From the NCBI GenBank assembly GCA_032127875.1, contig JAQBHI010000158.1, positions 4,626 through 68,625 of the forward strand: a stretch of DNA of 64,000 bases. Reading direction: 5' to 3'. Each line of letters begins with the position of its first letter. The stretch's first letter is position 1. This document shows, in pieces, positions 5,384 through 49,118 of this stretch. The notes below the pieces were generated by a model, which worked only from the letters and a program-made list of their open reading frames with translations, did not search any database and was not told the origin of the DNA. This DNA is from Acidobacteriota bacterium. Its GTDB lineage: Bacteria; Acidobacteriota; Vicinamibacteria; Fen-336. The position numbers and the translations under genes were made by a program.

Positions 5384-6447
5384 CGGTCGCCCATCCTTCT
5401 CACGGCCAGGCCGACGGCGATGGCCGCCGAGGACCCGAACTCACTGATGAAGTCGGGGTCGAAGTCCCGTGGGTTGTAGGTGACGTTGTTGAAGGGGTTC
5501 ATGATCTCCACCCCAGCATCGAAGCGCTCGCCGATGAGATCCTTCAGGCCCTGCACCTTCGAGGTGCCGCCCGAAAGGAAGATCCGGTCGATGCGGTCTT
5601 CGGAGCTCGTGGCCTTGAAGAAGTCGAAGGTCTTCTGGATCTCGAGTGCGATGTTCTCGGAGACGGCCTGCAGGATAGGCTGCAGGTTCTCGACGGCCGC
5701 GCCCTCGACCCGGCCCCCTCGCTTCAGGCTCTCGGCCTGGTCGAAGGAGAGGTTCAGGTCCTTCTGGATCGCGTCGGTGTATTGGTTGCCCCCGACGGCG
5801 ATGTCGCGGTTGAAGATCGAGGTGCCGCCCTTGACGATGTTGATGTTCATGATGGACGCGCCCACGTTGAGCAGCGCAAGCACCCGGCCCGGATCGGAGC
5901 CGTAGTTGACCTCGTAGCAGTTCTGCAAGGCAAACACGTCGACGTCCACGATCTGGGGCGACTTGCCCGCCTGCGTGATCACGGAGGTGTAGTCGCTGAT
6001 CTTGTCCTTCTTGACCGCGACCAGCAGCACGTCCATGTTCCCGCCCGCTCCGCCGCCGTCGATGACCTCGTAGTCGATCGAGACGTCCTGGATGTCGAAC
6101 GGGATGTACTGCTCGGCCTCCCAGTGAATCGATTCCGAGAGTTCCTCGGTGCTCATCTGGGGCAGGCTGATTTTCTTGACGATCACCGCGTTGCCCGAAA
6201 CGCCGGTGCAGACGTCGGGCGTCTTGATCTTCTGCGCCGCGAAGAGCCGCTGGATCCCATCGATGACCGCGCCTGAGTCCATGATGGCGCCGTCCACGAT
6301 GGCTTCCGGCGGAAGCGGCTCGATGCCGATGTTCGTCAACTGGTACTCGGCACCGCCCTTGCCGCCGGCCTTGAGTTCCACGACCTTGATGGCCGAAGAT
6401 CCGATGTCGAGGCCGACCAGACCCTTTTTCTTGCCGAACAAGCCCAC
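5380..6447 (-). CDS. pilM: Type IV pilus assembly ATPase-like protein PilM (actin fold).
   Basis: LFGKKKGLVGLDIGSSAIKVVELK is the canonical PilM N-terminus. The likely start is the GTG at 6447, preceded by GGGAGAGG. The track ORF extends to an ATG at 6543. Confidence 0.85.
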   Translation of the reverse strand: MGLFGKKKGLVGLDIGSSAIKVVELKAGGKGGAEYQLTNIGIEPLPPEAIVDGAIMDSGAVIDGIQRLFAAQKIKTPDVCTGVSGNAVIVKKISLPQMSTEELSESIHWEAEQYIPFDIQDVSIDYEVIDGGGAGGNMDVLLVAVKKDKISDYTSVITQAGKSPQIVDVDVFALQNCYEVNYGSDPGRVLALLNVGASIMNINIVKGGTSIFNRDIAVGGNQYTDAIQKDLNLSFDQAESLKRGGRVEGAAVENLQPILQAVSENIALEIQKTFDFFKATSSEDRIDRIFLSGGTSKVQGLKDLIGERFDAGVEIMNPFNNVTYNPRDFDPDFISEFGSSAAIAVGLAVRRMGDR

Positions 6448-7690: not shown

Positions 7691-8893
7691 CTAGCGGCGA
7701 TATGCGGGAAGCTCCACGCGCCTGGGCCTGTCCTGCCGGAAGCCCAGGGCGTAGTCGGCCTGCATCAGCTTGTGGATCTCCCGGGTGCCCTCGTAGATGA
7801 CGGCGGCCTTGGCGTTGCGAAAGAAACGGCCGGCCGGATACTCGTCGGAGTAGCCGTTGCCGCCGTGGATCTGGACGCAGTCCGACGCCGCGCGCTCGCT
7901 CTTCACGGTGGCAAACCACTTGGCGAGCGAGGTCTCGCGGGTGTTGCGCTTGCCTATGTTCTTGAGCCAGCCGGCGCGCAGCCACAGCAGGCGCGCCGCG
8001 TCGTAGTCGGAGACCATCTCGGCGATCATCTCCTTGACCAGCTGGTGTTCGCCGATCGCGACCCCGAAGGTCTTGCGCTGCTTCGCGTAGGCGACCGAGG
8101 CGTCGAGGCAGGCGCGGATCAAGCCGGTGGCGCCGGCGGCGACCGTGTAGCGGCCGCTCTCCAGGGCGAACATGGCGATGCGGAAACCCTCGCCCTCCTT
8201 GCCTAGCAGGTTCTCGGCTGGAACTTCGAGATCAGCCATGTGGAAGCCCCCCGTGTTGCCGGCGAGGATCCCCCATTTCTCTTTCATCGGGTAGGAACTA
8301 AAGCCCTTGAAGGCGCGCTCCACGATGAAGGCGCTGAGCCCGCTGTGGTCGCGCTTCTTCTTCTTCTCCTGGTCGGTCCAGGCGACCACGAGGAAATTGT
8401 CAGCGACGTCGGCAAGGCTGATCCAGGTCTTTTCCCCGTTCAGCACGTAGCGGTCGCCCTTCTTCAAAGCACTCGTCTGGATCCCGACGGCGTCGGAGCC
8501 GGCGTTTGGCTCGGTCAGGCCGTAGCTCGCGATCTTCTCGCCCCTTGCCTGCGGAGCCAGGTACTTCCGCTTCTGCTCCTCGGAGCCCCAGCACCATAGG
8601 CTCATGCAGTTGAGGCCTACGTGCACCGACATGATCACGCGCAGGTGGGTGTCGACGTACTCGAGCTCCTCGGAGACGAGCCCCAAGCTCAGGTAGTCCA
8701 TGCCCGCCCCGCCGTATTCCTCGGGAATGCAGATCCCGAGCAGCTGCAACTCGGCCATCCCCTTGAGGAATCCGCGCTCGAAGCGATGGGCGCGGTCGAG
8801 CTCGTGGATCTTCGGGGCCACTTCCTTCGCGGCCCAGTCGCGCACCATCTTTTCGACGGCGAGGTGCTCTTCCGACAACTCGAAATCGATCAC
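7691..8893 (-). CDS. Acyl-CoA dehydrogenase.
   Basis: 400 aa. ACAD motifs include [10 protein letters not shown], a YxxxGxK-like region, the FAD-binding middle domain and the C-terminal IYEGT. Confidence 0.9.
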
Positions 8894-8906: not shown

Positions 8907-9731
8907 TCAACGGTCCTTCCAGTTGGGCTTGCGCTGCTCCATGATGGCCCGGAGCCCCTCCTCAGCGTCCTCGGTGGCCATCAGCTGGTTCAGATACACG
9001 TCCTCGGCGTGGCGCAGGGCCTCCGGGAAGGGCAGATCGACGCCACCCGCGATGCCCTTGCGCGTGTACTGCATCACCGGGGCGCTCGACTCGGCGAAGC
9101 GCTGGATCAGCGCGGCCGCCTCGGCATCGAGCTTGTCGTCGGGAACCGCCCGCGAGATGAGGCCGATGCGCTCGGCGTCGGTGGCGCTCAACACCTGCCC
9201 ACCGAGCAAGAGGTCATAGGTCTTGCGGCGGCCGACGAGGTGCGGCAAGAGCGCCGCGGCCACCGTATTGAAGACCCCGGCACGGATTTCCGGATGCCCG
9301 AACTTGGCATTCTGTGCGCCCGCCAGGACGATGTCGCAAGCCGCAGCCAGGATGCTGCCCGCGCCGGTGGCCGGGCCGGCGACCACGGCCAGGGTTGGCT
9401 TGTCCACCTTGGCCAGACTCTCGATGATGCGACGCAATCCCTCGAGCATCAGATAGGCCCGATCGCCCAGGTGATCGCCGATCTCGAAACCGGCGGAGAA
9501 GTACTTCCCGGCCGCCGTCAGCACCACCAGCTTCACGTCGCGTTCGTACTCGAGGGATTCCAGGACCGAGTTCAGGTCCTCCATCAGCTCCATCGACAAG
9601 ACGTTCGCGGGCGGCCGGTTCAGGGTGATCCGGGCCACGCCCCCCACCGTCGCGAACTGGACGAACTGATAGGTGCGCGCGCTGGTGGGGTAGCTGTCGG
9701 CGTCGTGCGGGTCGTCTTCGAAGTCGGCCAT
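8907..9731 (-). CDS. Enoyl-CoA hydratase/isomerase (crotonase family).
   Basis: Start at [10 protein letters not shown]. Crotonase blocks are present ([35 protein letters not shown]). The upstream in-frame extension on the track is rejected. Confidence 0.85.
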
Positions 9732-9741
9732 CGTCAGTTCC

Positions 9742-10926
9742 TCATGCGATCCGTTCGAAAGCGGCCGCCAGGCCCATGCCGCCACTAATGCACAGCGTGG
9801 CGAGGCCGCGCCTGGCGCCCCGGCGAGCCATCTCGTGGAGCAGCGTGGTCGAGATCCGGGCGCCGGTGGCCCCGATCGGATGGCCGATCGCGATCGCGCC
9901 ACCGTTGACGTTTAGCCTCTCCGGCGCGAAACCCAGCTCGCGGTCGCAGGCGATCACCTGGGCCGCGAAGGCCTCGTTGGCCTCGACAAGGTCGAAGTCC
10001 TCGAGGCACAGCGAGAGGCGGGAGAGCAGCTTGCGGGTGGCCGGAACGACGCCGATGCCCATGACGTGGGGATCCACACCGGCGGCGGCCACGCCCAGAA
10101 GCCGCGCCATGGGCCTCACGCCCAGCGCCGTCGCCTTCTCCTTCGCGATCACGACCATCGCGGCAGCGCCATCGGTAATGCCCGAGGAGTTGCCGGCGGT
10201 CACCGTGCCGGTCTCTTCCTTGAACACCGGCGGCAGCTGCGCGAGGCTTGCCAGGGTGCTGCCGGCGCGAAAGTGCTCGTCCTGGCGGAACTCTGTGTCG
10301 CCCTTCTTGCCCGGGACCTTGACGGCGAAGGTCTCCGCGTCGAAGCGGCCGGCCTTCCAGGCGGATGCGGCGCGCTCCTGGCTGCGCATCGCGAACTCGT
10401 CCTGCTCCTGTCGGCCAATGCCGTGGATCTGGGCGAGTCGCTCGGCGGTCTCGCCCATCAGCATCTCGGCCAGCGGGCACTGGAAGCCGTCTTGATACAT
10501 CGCGTCCACGGCCGGCTGGTGTCCCATGCGGTAGCCCCAGCGGGCGCCTGTGAGCAGGTAGGGCACCCGGCTCATCGACTCGGTGCCACCGGCCACCACG
10601 ACGTCGGCATCGCCGTCGCGGACCGCTCGGAAGGCAAGCTCGATCGCCTTGAGGCCGCTGCCGCAGGCCATGTTGATCGTGAAGGCGGTGACCTCCTGGG
10701 GAATCCCGGCTCGGTAGGAGACCTGGCGCGCCACGTTGGGTCCGCCACCTGCTTGACGCGCGCAGCCGAACACCGTTTCGTCCACCTGGTCCGGGCGCAC
10801 TCCGGCGCGTCGCAGTGTTTCGCCGACGGCGGCGGCGCCCAACTCGGCCGCGGTGAGGCCGGACAAGGACCCGCCGAACTTGCCGATGGGCGTGCGAACA
10901 GCCCCGGCGACGACAACCTCCCTCAT
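9742..10926 (-). CDS. Acetyl-CoA C-acetyltransferase (thiolase).
   Basis: [15 protein letters not shown], an [10 protein letters not shown]-type active-site Cys region and a C-terminal GGMG. Confidence 0.9.
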
Positions 10927-13021: not shown

Positions 13022-13307
13022 ATGTCCGAACCGGGAGCCGGACGCCGCGACGACGAGCCGTCGCAACGCCTCGGGTACAAGCCCGAGCTGAAGCGCAGCC
13101 TCGGTCTATTGGCCGGCTTCTCGATAGCGTTCTCGTACATCTCCTCTCGTGGGTAGCGCTCGTCTACGGAGTCGGGACGATCGTCAACCTGTGTGCTGGC
13201 CGCGGCCCGCCGACGCGCTGGCTTCCTGGCTCACGCTGGGTTCGGCACTCGCCATCGTGGTCCCGGGCCTGGTCATCGTCTTCACGCGGAAGTTGGACGC
13301 CGCCTGA
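13022..13307 (+). pseudogene. Internally deleted remnant of an APC-family amino-acid permease: N-terminal and C-terminal ends only, in different frames.
   Basis: The ATG at 13022 encodes MSEPGAGRRDDEPSQRLGYKPELKRSLGLLAGFSIAFSYIS and then hits a stop. A different frame encodes a permease-like C-terminus ...WLTLGSALAIVVPGLVIVFTRKLDAA* ending at 13307. Confidence 0.5.
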
Positions 13308-13486
13308 GGCGGGCGGAGTGGTTGGGGGGAGCGGCTCGCGCGCGGGGGGGGTGCGCGGGGCTCCGTTGCCAGAATCCGAGGACACCCAGGGGTAGAATTC
13401 GGGGAGGGCAGAGCAGAGGTTTCGGTACTGCGACCTCCGCATTTTTTCTTGACACACCCCCCCCGGAGCCACACAATTCGCCTACT

Positions 13487-14206
13487 ATGCGTGCCTTTTC
13501 GAAGACGCGAACGGTTATTTGTGCCCTGTCACTGTTTCTCGCTGGAAACGCAAGTCCCGCGCCAGGCAACCCGCCAATCGACTCGGCGACAGTGCTGAGG
13601 GGCGACGCGGTCGTTGGCGTGGATTCCCTTGGGAGAGTCCTCGTCGCGGTTGACGCAAGCCAGTCGGACGATCTCGTGGACTACTTCGCTCTGTTTACCG
13701 CATCGGATCGTCTGACCGGGCCGTGGTCTCGCCACCTGGAGCAGGCCGCGATCGTCGTGCACGGCAGGCGGCTCACCTTAGTATCGCCGCGTTCCTCCTT
13801 TGCCATGTCTCTCGCGTTGAAGGGCTCCGACAGGCCCGGCGAGAACCCGCAGGGTCCCTTCGAGGTCTTCCTTAACCATGACGGAATCGAGCTTGTGCAG
13901 TTCCCGGGTGAGTCGTCCGTACGCTTGGCAGATCTGACTGCAGCGGACATCCATTCCGGGTGGCCCGACGCTTTCTACTACGACGTCCTTTCTCCAGACA
14001 CCAAGTGTCCGCCGGATGACGATTGCAGTGCCGGCTCTTGCCCCTCCACAGGGTGCGGAATAGGTGGTTGTCCCAATATTCCCACGGGCTGCAACGTAGC
14101 ATGTTCCGGCTACACCTACTCCTGCTGCAAGTGCCTCTCGGGGAGCCAAATGTATGCGGTCTGCCGATGCAGGGTGTGTCCCCCCCCCGGCACCTGTCCT
14201 CAATAG
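13487..14206 (+). CDS. Orphan secreted protein with a C-terminal cysteine-rich module.
   Basis: Signal peptide MRAFSKTRTVICALSLFLAGNASPA. The last ~70 aa hold about 17 Cys (CPPDDDCSAGSCPSTGCGIGGCPNIPTGCNVACSGYTYSCCKC...CRCRVCPPPGTCPQ). GC is visibly lower than in flanking genes (codons such as tta, gta, aat, att). The track ORF 13193..14206 is trimmed. Confidence 0.6.
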   Translation: MRAFSKTRTVICALSLFLAGNASPAPGNPPIDSATVLRGDAVVGVDSLGRVLVAVDASQSDDLVDYFALFTASDRLTGPWSRHLEQAAIVVHGRRLTLVSPRSSFAMSLALKGSDRPGENPQGPFEVFLNHDGIELVQFPGESSVRLADLTAADIHSGWPDAFYYDVLSPDTKCPPDDDCSAGSCPSTGCGIGGCPNIPTGCNVACSGYTYSCCKCLSGSQMYAVCRCRVCPPPGTCPQ

Positions 14207-14951
14207 CCGTCAAGCAGGCTCAGGAGCGGGTGGCAGCGGTACACTGGCAGAGCGCCGAGTCCCCGGGGCGCTAAAGGCGTTGCGGCCCGAAGCTTCCCCC
14301 CGATCCTTGGTAAGACTCAGGACGACTCGGCCGCAGGCTTTTCGGCTTGGGCCGGCGGGATGAGGGCGTAAGGTTCGTTAAAGGGCTCGCGTTCCGCCAC
14401 ACGCCCCGTAGGGCGCCAGAGCGCGGAACGTACCCGAGAAACGAGGACACTACCCCGTCTCTTCCGCCCTCTCGCGACGGTCGCATCGTCTCGCATCCGT
14501 CGCGGCGCTCCCCGACCTCCTCACCGCGCGCCACGCGCCGCGACGGCGGTGCGTGCGCCGTGGCTTCCTCGGCGCAGCATCGTCGCGTCGCTTTCGTGAC
14601 GCCGATACGCGCCACCATGTAGCCGTTGGGCTGCTACTACGCTGCTACCAGAACGTGTCGCCGCACGCGGGCGAGACGGTTGTGCTACGCTGCCGTCGCG
14701 GATGAAGTCGCTGTCCTTCCTCGGCTTCGGCTCGCGTGGTCGCGGTCGCGCCCTGCTCCGCGGCTCCAATGAGAACGAGGCCAAGGGCGCGGACCTGGAC
14801 TGAAGCTCAAGATTCCGAGCTCGGAGCCACCTCCGGATTGTACGGCGCGTCACTGACGCGTCACGCCCATCCTTGACTAACACTAAGTACTAAGCCACAA
14901 GGCAGCGAGTGGCGGGATTCACTCCCGACACGAGCGGCGTGGGGGGAGCAC

Positions 14952-15818: not shown

Positions 15819-15831
15819 GCGGCGGCTCTAG

Positions 15832-16125
15832 CTATTCCTCGTCGGTCCCGTCGTCGTCGTCACCATCGTCATCATCGTCATCGTCGTCGTAGTCCTCGGG
15901 CTCGTCCCAGCGAACCTTGTCCGCTTGCTCTTCCTTCTTGCCCTCCGCGTCGTCCTCCTCGTCTTCGTCCGCGTCTTCGCCCTCGTCATCGTCATCGTCA
16001 TCGTCGTCATCGTCGTCGTCTGCCACTGCCGTATCGTCGGCGATGGCGTCGTCGTCAACGACGACGTCGTCTTCCGAGGCGTTCTCGTCGTCATCGACCA
16101 GCCGCAGGGTGCGACCTTCGCTCAC
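15832..16125 (-). CDS. Hyper-acidic poly-Asp/Glu protein.
   Basis: The GTG at 16125 follows AGGAGG after a 4-nt spacer. The 97-aa product is about 60% D/E (…DDDDDDDDDDDDEGEDADEDEEDD…DYDDDDDDDDGDDDDG). It is 14 nt upstream of lipA on the same strand. The track ORF is trimmed. Confidence 0.55.
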   Translation of the reverse strand: MSEGRTLRLVDDDENASEDDVVVDDDAIADDTAVADDDDDDDDDDDDEGEDADEDEEDDAEGKKEEQADKVRWDEPEDYDDDDDDDDGDDDDGTDEE

Positions 16126-16213
16126 GGTGCCTCCTAATCCGTTGTCCGGTTTCAACGTAGCACGAAACTTTCGATTCCGTATTATGCTCTCGGCGCACGG
16201 CAATGGAGAGCGC

Positions 16214-16834
16214 ATGATCATCGTCTGCCCGAGTTGCTCGGCTCGTTACAAGTTCGACGAAACCAAGCTCGGCGACCGGCCCAGCGCCCGCACGAAGTGC
16301 GCCAAATGCGGCAACGCCATCGATATCGACAACCCGCTGCTGGGGGCCATGACCCTGCCGCCCGGCGCGTTGCCGGCAACAGCATCGCCGCCCCCGGCAG
16401 CCGCTCCGGCCGAGCCACCACCAGCGAGCGAGAAGATCAAGACGCAGGCGCGCCGCATCCCCGGTGTCGCCCCGGAAGACGCGACCTCGACCGGCAGGGA
16501 TCTCTTCAAGGCGGGGCTCGTCGAACTGCCCAGGGACAAGCGCTATTCGCTGGCGGTGCTGCAGGGCGTCTCCACCGGCCAGATCTTCCCGCTCACCAAG
16601 GTCCGGAACACGATCGGACGGGCAGGCGCGGACGTCATAATTGACGACGCGGAGGCTTCGCGCGTGCACGCAGCTGTGGAGATCCTGGGCGAGCACGCGA
16701 TTTTGCGCGACCTGGGATCGACGAACGGCACCTTCGTGGAGATGGACCGCATCGAGCAGCACGTGCTCAACAACCACAACGAGTTCCGGATCGGCAGCCA
16801 CGTGCTGATGTTCATCGTCACCGAGGTCGAATAG
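16214..16834 (+). CDS. Zinc-ribbon plus FHA domain protein.
   Basis: MIIVCPSCSARYKF...CAKCGN is an MJ0042-type zinc ribbon. The C-terminal FHA blocks include TIGRAGADVII, SRVHAAV, GSTNGTFV and FRIGSHVLMF. GGAG sits 5 nt before the ATG. Confidence 0.8.
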   Translation: MIIVCPSCSARYKFDETKLGDRPSARTKCAKCGNAIDIDNPLLGAMTLPPGALPATASPPPAAAPAEPPPASEKIKTQARRIPGVAPEDATSTGRDLFKAGLVELPRDKRYSLAVLQGVSTGQIFPLTKVRNTIGRAGADVIIDDAEASRVHAAVEILGEHAILRDLGSTNGTFVEMDRIEQHVLNNHNEFRIGSHVLMFIVTEVE

Positions 16835-47652: not shown

Positions 47653-49047
47653 CTACTCCCGCAGGGCGGGCGGCCGGGCGGCACGACGCCAATACGCGTA
47701 CGCCGGCAGGCCCAGGGCCAGGAGCACGAGCCCGATGCCCGATTCCCTCGGCTTTTCCACGAGGGTGTTCACGACCAGAGCCAGGGACGAGAGCACGAAC
47801 AGCAGCGGCACCCAAGGGTAGCCCCAGGTCCGGTAGGGCCGCGCGGCTTGCGGCCGCGTGCGGCGCAGCACCAGCACTGCGGCGCCAGTGGCCGCGTGAG
47901 ACAGCACGACTGCGAACACCACGTAGGTGTAGAGCTGCTCGTAGCTGCCCGAGAACGTGAGCACGATCGCCCACAAGCCCTGGGCCAGGATGCAGGCTGC
48001 CGGCGTGCTGTAGCGGGGATGGATCCTGGCGAGGGCCGGGAAGAACACGCCGTCCTGGGCCATCGGCAGATAGATGCGGGCTGCGTACAGGATCGTGGAG
48101 GAAATGCAGCCGAAGGTGGAGACGAGAACCGCGACCGAGATCAGCCGGCCCCCGATCGAACCGAACAGCGCCGCGGCGGCGGCCTCCCCGATGCGCGGCG
48201 TCTGCGCCATCGCCTCGACCGGAAGGGCGCGCACGTAGACGACGTTCATGAGCAGGTAGAGCAGCGTGACGGCGGCAGTGCCCGCGACCAGGCCGAGCGG
48301 CAGCTCGCGTTCGGGCCGCCGCATCTCGCCCGCCAGGTTGGTCACCGCGTACCACCCGTCGAAGCTCCACAGGACCGCGATCATCGCGACTCCGACCGCC
48401 GCGACGAGGCCGCTCGCGGGCAGCGGGGCCAGCAGCTGCGGAGCGGCTGTCGCGGGAAGCAGCACGCCGAGCACCCCCAGTCCGATGATCGAGCCCACCT
48501 TCACCCAGGTCACGAAATTCTGGAGCCCGACTGCCTCGCGCAGGCCTACGTAATTCACGGCCGTGAGCAGCAGGATCGCCAGCGCCCCGGCGAGCTGGCC
48601 GCCGTTGATCGGGAGCTGCCAGGGCCCGAGCGGAATCTCGACGAGCCGGTGAGCGGTCGAGAAAAACGGCAAGAAGGAGCCCAGGTACTCGCCAAAGCCG
48701 ACTGCCAGCGTCGCGATCCCGCCCGACATGATCACGAAGAACGCAGCCCATCCGAACAGGAAGCCCCACAGCGGCCCGTACGTCTCGCGCAGGAAGTGGT
48801 ACTGGCCGCCCGCCCTGGGGAACATCGCGCCCAGCTCCGCGTAGGTGAGTGCGCCGGCGAGGGTCAACAAGCCGCCCACGAGCCACACCGCCAGGACCAG
48901 GCCCGCGTGCGGCAAGGCACGGGCAATGTCGCCCGTGGTGATGAAGATTCCCGTTCCCAGGATCGAGCCGATCGTGATCAGCGCGGCGTCCAGCGCGCTG
49001 AGCCCACGGACCAACTGCGGCGAGGAACCGGCCTGCCCGTCGTGCAT
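47653..49047 (-). CDS. APC-family amino-acid permease.
   Basis: ITIGSILGTGIFITTG, the N-terminal APC signature. About 12 TM helices. 464 aa. Confidence 0.85.
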   Translation of the reverse strand: MHDGQAGSSPQLVRGLSALDAALITIGSILGTGIFITTGDIARALPHAGLVLAVWLVGGLLTLAGALTYAELGAMFPRAGGQYHFLRETYGPLWGFLFGWAAFFVIMSGGIATLAVGFGEYLGSFLPFFSTAHRLVEIPLGPWQLPINGGQLAGALAILLLTAVNYVGLREAVGLQNFVTWVKVGSIIGLGVLGVLLPATAAPQLLAPLPASGLVAAVGVAMIAVLWSFDGWYAVTNLAGEMRRPERELPLGLVAGTAAVTLLYLLMNVVYVRALPVEAMAQTPRIGEAAAAALFGSIGGRLISVAVLVSTFGCISSTILYAARIYLPMAQDGVFFPALARIHPRYSTPAACILAQGLWAIVLTFSGSYEQLYTYVVFAVVLSHAATGAAVLVLRRTRPQAARPYRTWGYPWVPLLFVLSSLALVVNTLVEKPRESGIGLVLLALGLPAYAYWRRAARPPALRE

Positions 49048-49118
49048 CGGGCCGGCATTCTAACCGCAAGGAGGCCCTCAAGGGGCCGGCGGGGCCGCAT
49101 GCTAAGCTGTTCTTTCCG

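What the first reader, a model, noticed from the sequence alone, without database searches (positions are those of the whole stretch)
13487..14206. Lower-GC orphan secreted protein with a densely Cys-rich C-terminal module.
The ORF has a clear signal peptide. Its C-terminus packs about 17 cysteines into about 70 residues (CPPDDDC…CGIGGCPN…CNVACSGYTYSCCKC…CRCRVCPPPGTCPQ). That points to a disulfide-knotted or metal-binding extracellular domain. Its base composition and codon choice (tta, gta, aat, att, tgt) are visibly less GC-biased than the about 70% GC neighbours. It is flanked by a gene ghost and a long non-coding tract. All of this suggests horizontal acquisition. I do not recognise the Cys pattern as a known family. 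It could be a toxin, adhesin or bacteriocin-like effector.
Basis: partly seen in the sequence, partly recalled or inferred. Interest (0 to 1): 0.6.

Follow-up and report, generated by a model that had tools for sequence, protein, structure and literature searches.

The report
Exported disulfide-knotted protein, undescribed family
This is a real gene for an exported two-domain protein whose tail is a tightly disulfide-bonded mini-domain; it belongs to a rare bacterial family absent from the curated protein-family and solved-structure libraries searched, and its function is still unknown.

Summary
The ORF at 13487-14206 (+) is real and intact. It encodes 239 aa: a Sec-type signal peptide, an all-beta N-domain and a C-terminal Cys module. 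The module has 14 Cys in 64 residues, not about 17. GC is 61.4% and GC3 0.70, against a mean GC3 of 0.84 for window ORFs, the lowest in the window. The upstream gene ghost (an amino-acid permease remnant) and the 745-bp non-coding tract are also real.

"Orphan" is wrong. An exhaustive HMMER search found 93 clusters, 56 at E<=1e-10, all unnamed. The genome hits are Acidobacteriota (Thermoanaerobaculia) and Gemmatimonadota MAGs. No Pfam, NCBIfam, PADLOC or PHROGs model matches. No PDB sequence or Foldseek match exists, although the AlphaFold models are confident (pLDDT 88.5 and 84.9).

Cys counts are even in 64 of 71 members, and the optional cysteines appear or vanish in pairs. The module is therefore fully disulfide-bonded, not a metal cluster. 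The same module also occurs alone in 80-100-aa exported peptides. One lies next to a DsbA-like gene; others carry NVEALA-like leaders.

No export or immunity partner is conserved. My best reading is a stand-alone, non-enzymatic binding protein of the cell envelope, carried as an accessory gene. A pro-toxin or bacteriocin-like role remains possible.

The parts
13449..13477 (+). Promoter-like site TTGACA-17 nt-CACAAT. The -10 element ends 9 nt before the ATG and there is no Shine-Dalgarno sequence, so the mRNA probably has no leader or a very short one (inferred).
   Evidence: 10 of 12 consensus matches; 3 sites found against 0.1 expected in shuffles; five of the six homologues compared have GGAGG-like sites before the ATG; this gene does not.
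13487..14206 (+). Coding sequence, 239 codons plus TAG. It encodes the exported two-domain protein.
13487..13552 (+). Sec-type signal peptide, residues 1-22. Cleavage is predicted after G-N-A22 (inferred).
   Evidence: Direct reading of the sequence; best 10-residue hydropathy window 2.82; 61 of 71 relatives have an equivalent hydrophobic region.
13583..13906 (+). N-terminal all-beta domain, residues 33-140, with seven predicted strands.
   Evidence: pLDDT 93-98 over residues 31-110 and 86-97 over 111-140; conserved motifs GVDxLGRVLVAVD, LFT, RLxGPWS.
13652..13681 (+). Conserved acidic loop D56-x4-D61-D62-x2-D65. It is a variant of the DxDxDG-type Ca2+-binding loop; Ca2+ binding is inferred and was not tested.
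   Evidence: D56, D61 and D65 conserved in 80-87% of members, and G62 in 78% (the window protein has D); canonical DxDxDGxxD in 17 of 71 members.
13907..14005 (+). Ordered connector, residues 141-173, carrying the conserved W159-P160-x2-F-x-Y-D-x-L-x-P motif.
   Evidence: pLDDT 85-97; conservation of the motif.
14006..14197 (+). Cys module, C174-C237: 14 Cys in 64 residues, predicted as four beta strands. The eight-Cys core shared by the family is C180, C190, C202, C206, C213, C214, C226 and C228. Disulfides inferred from covariation are C195-C216, C174-C231 and C185-C237.
13023..13307 (+). Gene ghost: a frameshifted, internally deleted remnant of an APC-type amino-acid permease. The N-terminal part (about 45 codons) was tested. 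The C-terminal part is my reading only.
   Evidence: six-frame translations; tblastn hits to annotated amino-acid permease genes, E 2e-4 to 1e-2. Pfam negative.
14207..14951 (.). 745-bp tract with no detectable gene or RNA family, between the 3' ends of the target gene and the convergent lipoyl synthase gene.

Best explanation
The gene encodes a stand-alone exported protein of a rare, undescribed accessory family.

Steps and their status:
1. It is transcribed from its own promoter abutting the ATG (inferred).
2. The pre-protein is exported by Sec into the periplasm of a diderm host. The signal peptide is read from the sequence. The diderm status is shown by the PilQ secretin and TonB-dependent receptor genes in the window.
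3. It folds oxidatively there. All 14 cysteines of the C-terminal module form seven disulfides. This is inferred from family-wide even parity and paired gain and loss. Three bonds are proposed: C174-C231, C185-C237 and C195-C216.
4. The result is a rigid unit of two parts. One is a seven-stranded beta N-domain with a conserved acidic, DxDxDG-like loop that probably binds Ca2+. The other is a four-stranded, disulfide-stapled mini-domain.
5. The mini-domain is an autonomous unit. It folds alone in silico and occurs alone in small exported peptides elsewhere.
6. I propose that the protein is non-enzymatic. It would act in the envelope or at the cell surface as a very stable stoichiometric binder, inhibitor-like or protective, with the Cys module as the recognition surface.

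The anatomy and the disulfide state are well supported. The binder function is inference.
For: A real, constrained gene:
- Homologues share 39-55% identity and all core cysteines and motifs are conserved.

Export:
- The N-terminus is signal-like, and 61 of 71 relatives have an equivalent hydrophobic N-terminus.
- The host is a diderm.

Disulfides rather than metal:
- 64 of 71 modules have an even Cys count of 8, 10, 12, 14 or 16 (binomial p=1e-12).
- C195 and C216 co-occur: 49 members have both and 12 have neither.
- Extra cysteines at the N-terminal and C-terminal ends of the module co-occur: 49 both, 16 neither, 6 single.
- A module-only homologue lies 84 bp downstream of a DsbA/Thioredoxin_4 gene.

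Fold:
- The full-length AF2 model has pLDDT 88.5 and pTM 0.83, with an ordered connector.
- The module alone gives pLDDT 84.9 with the same four strands.

Acidic loop:
- It is the most conserved non-Cys feature of the family.

Stand-alone gene:
- Six loci share no conserved neighbour.
- The flanking genes here are housekeeping.

Cell-associated binder rather than diffusible toxin:
- Some relatives have canonical lipoboxes: P0081 LAGC, P0093 VAAC, P0077 ILAC.
- The module has a median net charge of 0, and the mature protein here has -9.
- No immunity or export gene is linked.

Accessory status:
- GC3 is below the host median in the window, L003, L004 and L009.
- IS elements lie nearby in L003 and in L005/L006.
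- The ten closest relatives looked up are all singleton clusters from metagenomes.
Against: - No ligand, partner or phenotype is known. The binder or inhibitor role is argued by exclusion and analogy.
- The module also occurs as short exported peptides with NVEALA-like leaders ending in GG. These sit in clusters that hold other Cys-rich peptides. That looks more like bacteriocin or signalling-peptide biology.
- The window copy lacks a Shine-Dalgarno sequence. It departs from three conserved glycines (G62D, G184S, G186P) and sits between decayed sequences. It could be poorly expressed or on the way to decay.
- Enzymatic activity of the N-domain cannot be excluded.
- The parity and covariation statistics are not corrected for phylogeny.
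Confidence: 0.4

Rival explanations
1. Pro-toxin or bacteriocin-like effector. The N-domain would be a carrier or pro-domain, and the Cys module a warhead that is released or displayed to antagonise other cells. Precursors of defensins and knottin toxins have the same layout: signal, pro-region, then a C-terminal Cys-rich peptide.
For: - The layout is signal, about 150 aa, then a C-terminal Cys module.
- The module exists alone in 80-100-aa exported peptides.
- P0099 and P0100 carry NVEALA-like leaders ending in GG or NG. They lie in clusters with a bona fide NVEALA gene, another Cys-rich NVEALA-leader peptide and 6-bladed propeller genes.
- The distribution is patchy and accessory, and codon usage is atypical.
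- Some class-A members have long Ser/Gly linkers before the module: P0017 and P0037.
- The last six cysteines align with an arthropod defensin pattern, and C195-C216 corresponds to the defensin C1-C4 bond.
Against: - No immunity, C39-ABC exporter or maturase gene is linked in any of the six class-A loci.
- The connector is confidently ordered and the two domains pack together (pTM 0.83).
- Lipoprotein variants exist.
- The module is neutral to acidic, and only 2 of 71 reach +3 or more.
- The defensin match is not significant (E=0.5), and the CxxxC segment is predicted as a strand, not a helix.
- A diderm would need a further secretion step across the outer membrane.
Confidence: 0.25
2. Structural, adhesive or matrix protein of the cell surface. 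It would be a Ca2+-stabilised beta domain plus a disulfide knob that binds polysaccharide or mineral surfaces.
For: - The conserved acidic DxDxDG-like loop resembles loops in extracellular Ca-binding modules.
- The module is rich in Cys, Gly, Ser and Thr.
- The protein is exported, and some relatives are lipid-anchored.
Against: - The protein is small and monomer-sized, with no repeats, no anchoring or sorting domain and no linked secretion system.
- No carbohydrate-binding family matches.
- The family is very rare.
Confidence: 0.12
3. Metal-binding protein: a metallothionein-like thiolate cluster in the C-terminus.
For: Dense CC, CxC and CxxC motifs.
Against: - Even Cys parity in 64 of 71 members, and paired gain and loss of cysteines.
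- Export to an oxidising compartment.
- A confident beta-sheet fold.
- A DsbA-like neighbour of one homologue.
Confidence: 0.03
4. Spurious ORF or decaying pseudogene in a degraded intergenic region.
For: - GC3 is low and there is no Shine-Dalgarno sequence.
- Pseudogene remnants flank the ORF.
- It departs at three conserved Gly positions.
- A frameshifted relative exists elsewhere: P0096 in L014.
Against: - The reading frame is full-length and intact, with every core Cys, an even Cys count and all family motifs.
- The AF2 model is confident.
- A near-identical strain keeps the gene with a single substitution.
Confidence: 0.05

Closest known systems
Small exported Cys-module peptides, including NVEALA-like (PF14055-like) leader peptides of low-GC, probably Bacteroidota, metagenome contigs (P0098-P0100). 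These are themselves uncharacterised.
   Same: They share the core module: C-x-SGGPGS-x-SC ... CSVxC ... YACC ... CxC, with eight Cys. The E-values are 6.5e-5 to 5.2e-4 in a database of 5.8 billion sequences.
   Different: They lack the 140-aa N-domain. They carry a TM or NVEALA-like leader (sub-threshold Pfam hit, 15-17 bits against a cutoff of 27) or a plain signal peptide. They are clustered with DUF5128/TolB-like propeller genes or a DsbA-like gene. The window gene has no such neighbours.
Cysteine-stabilised alpha-beta (cis-)defensins and their pre-pro precursors
   Same: The precursor layout is the same: signal, pro-region, C-terminal Cys-rich domain. The spacing GC...CxxxC...C...CxC of six cysteines also matches. 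The covarying pair C195-C216 corresponds to the defensin C1-C4 bond.
   Different: The profile match is not significant (E=0.5). The CxxxC segment is predicted as a beta strand and the module has no helix. There are 8-16 Cys instead of 6-8. The net charge is about 0, not cationic.
Periplasmic or lipoprotein inhibitor proteins of diderm bacteria, such as PliC/MliC, Ivy and ecotin (recalled from my own knowledge, not tested)
   Same: They are small, stand-alone, signal-peptide or lipobox-bearing beta proteins with sporadic distribution and no partner genes.
   Different: There is no sequence or fold similarity. None of those has a module of 4-8 disulfides. No target is known here.
DxDxDG-type Ca2+-binding loops, as in FG-GAP and thrombospondin type-3 repeats
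   Same: A hairpin loop D-x-D-x-D-G-x-x-D sits between hydrophobic strands. It is canonical in 17 of 71 members. One member gives a weak FG-GAP hit (E=0.022).
   Different: There is a single loop, not a repeat array or propeller. The window protein has a one-residue-longer variant with D in place of G. Ca2+ binding was not tested.

Membership tests
CS-alpha-beta (cis-)defensin | Significant sequence or profile similarity to defensin families | tested here: not met
   No Pfam hit. The best PDB sequence hit is 2ru0_A at E=0.5.
CS-alpha-beta (cis-)defensin | A CxxxC motif on an alpha-helix, disulfide-bonded to a CxC motif on a beta strand | tested here: not met
   The motifs are present (C202-x3-C206, C226-x-C228). 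However, both AF2 models place 202-206 in a strand, and the only helical turn DSSP marks in the full-length model is residues 177-179, at the module's N-terminal edge. pLDDT is above 90 there.
CS-alpha-beta (cis-)defensin | C1-C4, C2-C5, C3-C6 connectivity | tested here: inconclusive
   Covariation supports only C195-C216, the C1-C4 equivalent. The invariant cysteines cannot be resolved by covariation, and no model coordinates were available.
Metallothionein-like metal-thiolate protein | Cysteines act as metal ligands, so there is no constraint on pairing | tested here: not met
   Even Cys count in 64 of 71 members and paired gain and loss of cysteines. The protein is exported.
Class II bacteriocin or double-glycine-leader peptide system | A GG leader plus a linked C39-peptidase ABC exporter and an immunity gene | tested here: not met
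   The leader is Sec-type. The neighbours are SAM_HAT, cysteine desulfurase, lipoyl synthase and an FHA protein. Six loci share no neighbour.
Radical-SAM-modified Cys-rich RiPP (ranthipeptide/SCIFF type) | A short leader-core precursor next to a peptide-maturase radical SAM enzyme | tested here: not met
   The only radical SAM neighbour is a lipoyl synthase with a LIAS_N domain. It is convergent with the target and 745 bp away. The precursor has a signal peptide and a folded 140-aa domain.
NVEALA family (PF14055) | Match to the PF14055 profile | tested here: not met
   The window protein has no Pfam hit even at E<=10. Only the module-only relatives P0099 and P0100 give sub-threshold hits.
The undescribed family itself (class A: signal peptide, beta N-domain, Cys module) | The motifs GVDxLGR...D-x(3-4)-DG-x2-D, RLxGPWS and WPxxFxYDxLxP, followed by the eight-Cys core C...C...C-x3-C...CC...C-x-C | tested here: met
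   All motifs and all eight core cysteines are present. The phmmer E-values to relatives reach 1.8e-44.
DxDxDG Ca2+-binding loop | Motif D-x-[DN]-x-[DN]-G-x-x-[DE] | tested here: inconclusive
   The window protein has D56-ASQS-D61-D62-LV-D65, which is one residue longer and has D in place of G. The motif is canonical in 17 of 71 relatives.
DxDxDG Ca2+-binding loop | Bound Ca2+ | not testable with these tools
   Ca2+ binding needs ITC, DSF or a crystal structure; none of these is possible here.

The most novel reading that the evidence does not exclude
The C-terminal module would be a new, widely dispersed class of bacterial disulfide-knotted effector domain with a fold not yet seen in the PDB. 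Different lineages would deploy it in two ways. In one it is a free exported peptide, with an NVEALA-like or Sec leader and in one case a dedicated DsbA. In the other it is fused to a Ca-loop beta carrier, as in Acidobacteriota and Gemmatimonadota. It would mediate antagonism or defence between soil bacteria, which would make it a bacterial counterpart of eukaryotic knottin or defensin arsenals.
Probability: 0.2. Interest if true: 0.75.

Novelty: new variant of a known kind. Interest (0 to 1): 0.45.

Why it matters
Acidobacteriota and Gemmatimonadota are abundant soil phyla that are hard to culture, and their secreted proteins are mostly unannotated. This finding defines a compact exported family with three useful properties. 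The predicted structure is confident. No match was found in curated family or structure libraries. There is a clear, testable biochemical prediction: four to eight disulfides with three assigned bonds, plus a Ca-type loop.

The Cys module is a portable unit. It also occurs as small exported peptides next to a DsbA-like gene and in NVEALA-type peptide clusters, which are themselves uncharacterised. If the module turns out to be an inhibitor or an antagonistic peptide, it would be a new hyper-stable scaffold and would give a first functional handle on those clusters. If it is only a structural envelope protein, the finding is a routine new domain family.

Tried and rejected
- Pfam, NCBIfam, PADLOC and PHROGs scans of the protein, of 71 relatives and of 32 isolated modules found nothing.
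- PDB sequence profiles found only noise.
- Foldseek of the full model and of the module model against PDB, and of the full model against BFVD, gave no hit at E<=1e-3.
- A profile query of the word-indexed protein database with 71 sequences was swamped by the candidate cap and returned three hits.
- The metagenome contig scan gave only two short loci.
- The viral contig scan gave none. The module alignment was too variable to run that scan.
- No paralogue exists in the window.
- dN/dS against the only close copy was impossible, because it is the same strain at 99.9% identity.
- The gene downstream of P0098 looked like a DUF5128-type propeller through a shared G-x-GPGE[FY] motif. The match is only 7.6 bits, fails in a larger ORF set, and no class-A locus contains such a gene.
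- Pfam on unknown neighbours in other loci found nothing.
- Repeat and inverted-repeat searches for insertion boundaries around the islet found nothing convincing.
- Literature searches for NVEALA, DUF5128 and Cys-rich secreted proteins of these phyla found nothing relevant.
- An exact look-up of the neighbouring LipA protein, to trace the source genome, found nothing on record.

Full report
**Observation**

The ORF at 13487-14206 (+) exists and encodes 239 aa. The N-terminus is MRAFSKTRTVICALSLFLAGNA|S. It has three basic residues, a 12-residue hydrophobic core and a small-x-small site, which reads as a Sec signal. No SignalP tool was available, so this is a heuristic.

The C-terminus holds 14 cysteines between C174 and C237, not about 17. 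One further Cys lies in the signal peptide.

GC is 61.4% against 67.5% for the window. GC3 is 0.70 against a mean of 0.84 (sd 0.06) for 38 coding-like ORFs. That is the lowest in the window, with z about -2.4. 72 of 239 codons end in A or T. Even so, the annotated frame has the highest third-position GC over most of the ORF.

**Surroundings**

The flanking genes are core metabolism:
- upstream, in order: glpX, acyl-CoA dehydrogenase, enoyl-CoA hydratase, thiolase, SAM hydroxide adenosyltransferase and class-V aminotransferase (cysteine desulfurase);
- downstream: lipoyl synthase (convergent), a zinc-ribbon/FHA protein, a PLP decarboxylase and RNase III.

Elsewhere the window encodes a PilQ-type secretin with an AMIN domain and a TonB-dependent receptor-like outer-membrane protein. 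The host is therefore a diderm.

Between the desulfurase and the target lies a remnant of an APC amino-acid permease at 13023-13307. Its first 45 or so codons, read through one frameshift, hit annotated amino-acid permease genes by tblastn at E 2e-4 to 1e-2. Pfam did not see it.

Downstream, 745 bp separate the stop codon from the convergent lipA stop. This tract has no Rfam hit, no terminator-like site and no convincing ORF or frame signal.

A promoter-like TTGACA-17-CACAAT site ends 9 nt before the ATG, and there is no Shine-Dalgarno sequence. Five of the six homologues compared have GGAGG-like sites. I infer a leaderless or near-leaderless transcript.

**Not an orphan**

The word-indexed search found only the same gene from a near-identical strain (99.9% DNA identity over 3.67 kb, one amino-acid change) and one 39% relative.

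The exhaustive HMMER search found 93 clusters at E<=1e-3, 56 at E<=1e-10 and 14 at E<=1e-30. Most are 200-290 aa and cover both domains. The ten closest relatives looked up are all unnamed singleton clusters from metagenomes.

The species-representative genome scan placed members in one Gemmatimonadota MAG and in two Thermoanaerobaculia (Acidobacteriota) MAGs. One of the latter is a Candidatus Multivoradales genome with two copies.

No member matches any Pfam, NCBIfam, PADLOC or PHROGs model. No PDB sequence matches.

**Anatomy of the family**

The conserved features, in order, are:
- a signal peptide, with a hydrophobic N-terminus in 61 of 71 members and canonical lipoboxes in a few (P0081 LAGC, P0093 VAAC, P0077 ILAC);
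- an N-domain with the motifs GVDxLGRVLVAVD, LFT and RLxGPWS;
- an acidic loop in which D56, D61 and D65 are conserved in 80-87% of members and G62 in 78%, making it the most conserved non-Cys feature;
- a connector with W-P-x2-F-x-Y-D-x-L-x-P;
- the Cys module, with consensus C-x-AGG-x-GS-x2-C-S-[IV]-x-G-C ... C-S-V-x-C ... [YF]-A-C-C-x-C ... C-[RK]-C.

The acidic loop is a canonical DxDxDGxxD in 17 of 71 members. The window protein has a longer variant.

**Structure**

AlphaFold2 with the 71-sequence alignment gives pLDDT 88.5 and pTM 0.83. It predicts seven strands in residues 35-140, an ordered connector and four strands in the module.

The module alone gives pLDDT 84.9 with the same four strands and no helix.

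**Disulfides, not metal**

Cys counts in the module are even in 64 of 71 members, taking values 8, 10, 12, 14 or 16. The binomial p is 1e-12, not corrected for relatedness.

Eight cysteines are essentially invariant: C180, C190, C202, C206, C213, C214, C226 and C228. The optional ones come and go in pairs:
- C195 with C216: 49 members have both, 12 neither, 10 one only;
- an N-terminal extra Cys (C174) with a C-terminal extra Cys (C231 or C229): 49 both, 16 neither, 6 one only;
- the window-type C185 with a second C-terminal Cys (C237).

I therefore propose seven disulfides here. Three can be assigned: C174-C231, C185-C237 and C195-C216.

**The module is portable**

A search with the module alignment found 80-118-aa proteins.
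- P0096 is a frameshifted class-A copy.
- P0098 is a signal peptide plus the eight-Cys core. It lies 84 bp downstream of a DsbA/Thioredoxin_4 gene.
- P0099 and P0100 come from contigs of 36-39% GC. They have a TM segment, an NVEALA-like leader ending in GG or NG (sub-threshold PF14055 hit) and then the eight-Cys core.
- Their clusters also hold a bona fide NVEALA gene, a second leader peptide with a different Cys-rich core, and several DUF5128/TolB-like propeller genes.

No literature on NVEALA or DUF5128 was found in the library.

**Context of the two-domain form**

The six class-A loci are the window, L003, L004, L005, L009 and L011. They share no neighbour within 6 kb except a thiolase in two of them. 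No DUF5128-like gene is present, and no viral contig carries the family.

In L003 and in L005/L006 the gene lies among IS elements. L005 and L006 are two copies of a 10-kb segment within one MAG.

The family gene has GC3 below the host median in the window (0.70 against 0.85), L003 (0.67 against 0.79), L004 (0.75 against 0.92) and L009 (0.75 against 0.80). This is the usual signature of accessory genes.

**Interpretation**

Shown:
- the gene is real and intact;
- the family exists and is uncharacterised;
- the architecture is as described;
- the even and paired Cys pattern holds across the family;
- no partner gene is conserved.

Inferred:
- Sec export to the periplasm;
- Dsb-dependent folding into seven disulfides;
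- Ca2+ binding in the acidic loop;
- a non-enzymatic binding function.

I favour an envelope-resident binder or inhibitor-like role, at about 0.4. The reasons are that some relatives are lipoproteins, the module is neutral (median charge 0; the mature window protein is -9), the two domains pack rigidly, and no immunity or export gene is linked.

The main rival, at about 0.25, is a pro-toxin or bacteriocin-like effector. It rests on the precursor-like layout and on the module-only peptides in peptide-cluster settings.

Metal binding (0.03) and a spurious ORF or pseudogene (0.05) are unlikely.

**Comparison with known families**

The last six cysteines fit the defensin spacing GC...CxxxC...C...CxC, and C195-C216 corresponds to the defensin C1-C4 bond. 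But the profile match is E=0.5, and the CxxxC segment is a predicted strand, not a helix. The protein is therefore not a CS-alpha-beta defensin.

It is also none of the following:
- a double-glycine bacteriocin system;
- a radical-SAM RiPP, because the adjacent radical SAM gene is lipoyl synthase;
- an NVEALA protein.

**Verdict**

The cysteine count was too high and 'orphan' is wrong.

The protein is a new, rare, structurally confident family of exported disulfide-knotted proteins. Interest is moderate, because the function remains inferential.

Noticed in passing
window 13023-13307: Remnant of an APC amino-acid permease. About 45 N-terminal codons survive with a frameshift near 13145, followed directly by what reads like the last 50 or so codons. 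This implies an internal deletion of about 1.2 kb. It is not a copy of the intact permease at 47653-49059.
   Followed up: partly
window 14207-14951: 745 bp lie between two convergent genes with no ORF, Rfam family or terminator. The stretch 14445-14690 shows a weak third-phase GC signal (0.72-0.84) that could be another decayed gene.
   Followed up: partly
window 15830-16190: A low-complexity tract between lipA and the zinc-ribbon/FHA gene has AT skew about -0.43 and GC about 0.61. It reads as poly-Ser on the + strand and poly-Asp/Glu on the - strand (ORFs 15917-16834 + and 15832-16221 -). The real FHA gene probably starts near the zinc ribbon (MIIVCPSC...), which would leave the tract unexplained.
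   Followed up: no
L005 9834-20269 and L006 9834-20277: One Candidatus Multivoradales MAG carries two 98.9%-identical copies of a 10.4-kb segment, on a 1.33-Mb contig and on a 25-kb contig. The segment contains the family gene, an IS110-like transposase gene, an AAA-ATPase-like gene and two large secreted-looking proteins of unknown function. It may be a mobile element or an assembly haplotig.
   Followed up: partly
L012 (whole locus; small genes at 5911-6213, 8475-8732, 10441-10767): This low-GC cluster holds at least three peptides that share a TM plus NVEALA-type leader but have different Cys-rich cores. They are interleaved with five DUF5128/TolB-like propeller genes and a 200-aa membrane protein with a CxC/CxxC-like motif; homologues of that protein are in L013 and L016. 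It looks like an uncharacterised system for exported disulfide-rich peptides.
   Followed up: partly
L015 1395-2386: A membrane-anchored DsbA/Thioredoxin_4 gene sits 84 bp upstream of the 83-aa module-only peptide P0098. This suggests a dedicated oxidase-substrate pair.
   Followed up: no
L014 about 9650-10357: P0096 is a class-A family gene broken by a frameshift, and it lacks the terminal CxC. It is either a pseudogene or an assembly error.
   Followed up: partly
hits P0008, P0035, P0048, P0056, P0057, P0060-62, P0065, P0067, P0068, P0076, P0082: About 14 relatives end within a few residues of the WPxxFxxD motif and so have the N-domain without the Cys module. These could be genes cut at contig ends, with a detection bias, or true N-domain-only proteins. 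I could not check their stop codons.
   Followed up: no
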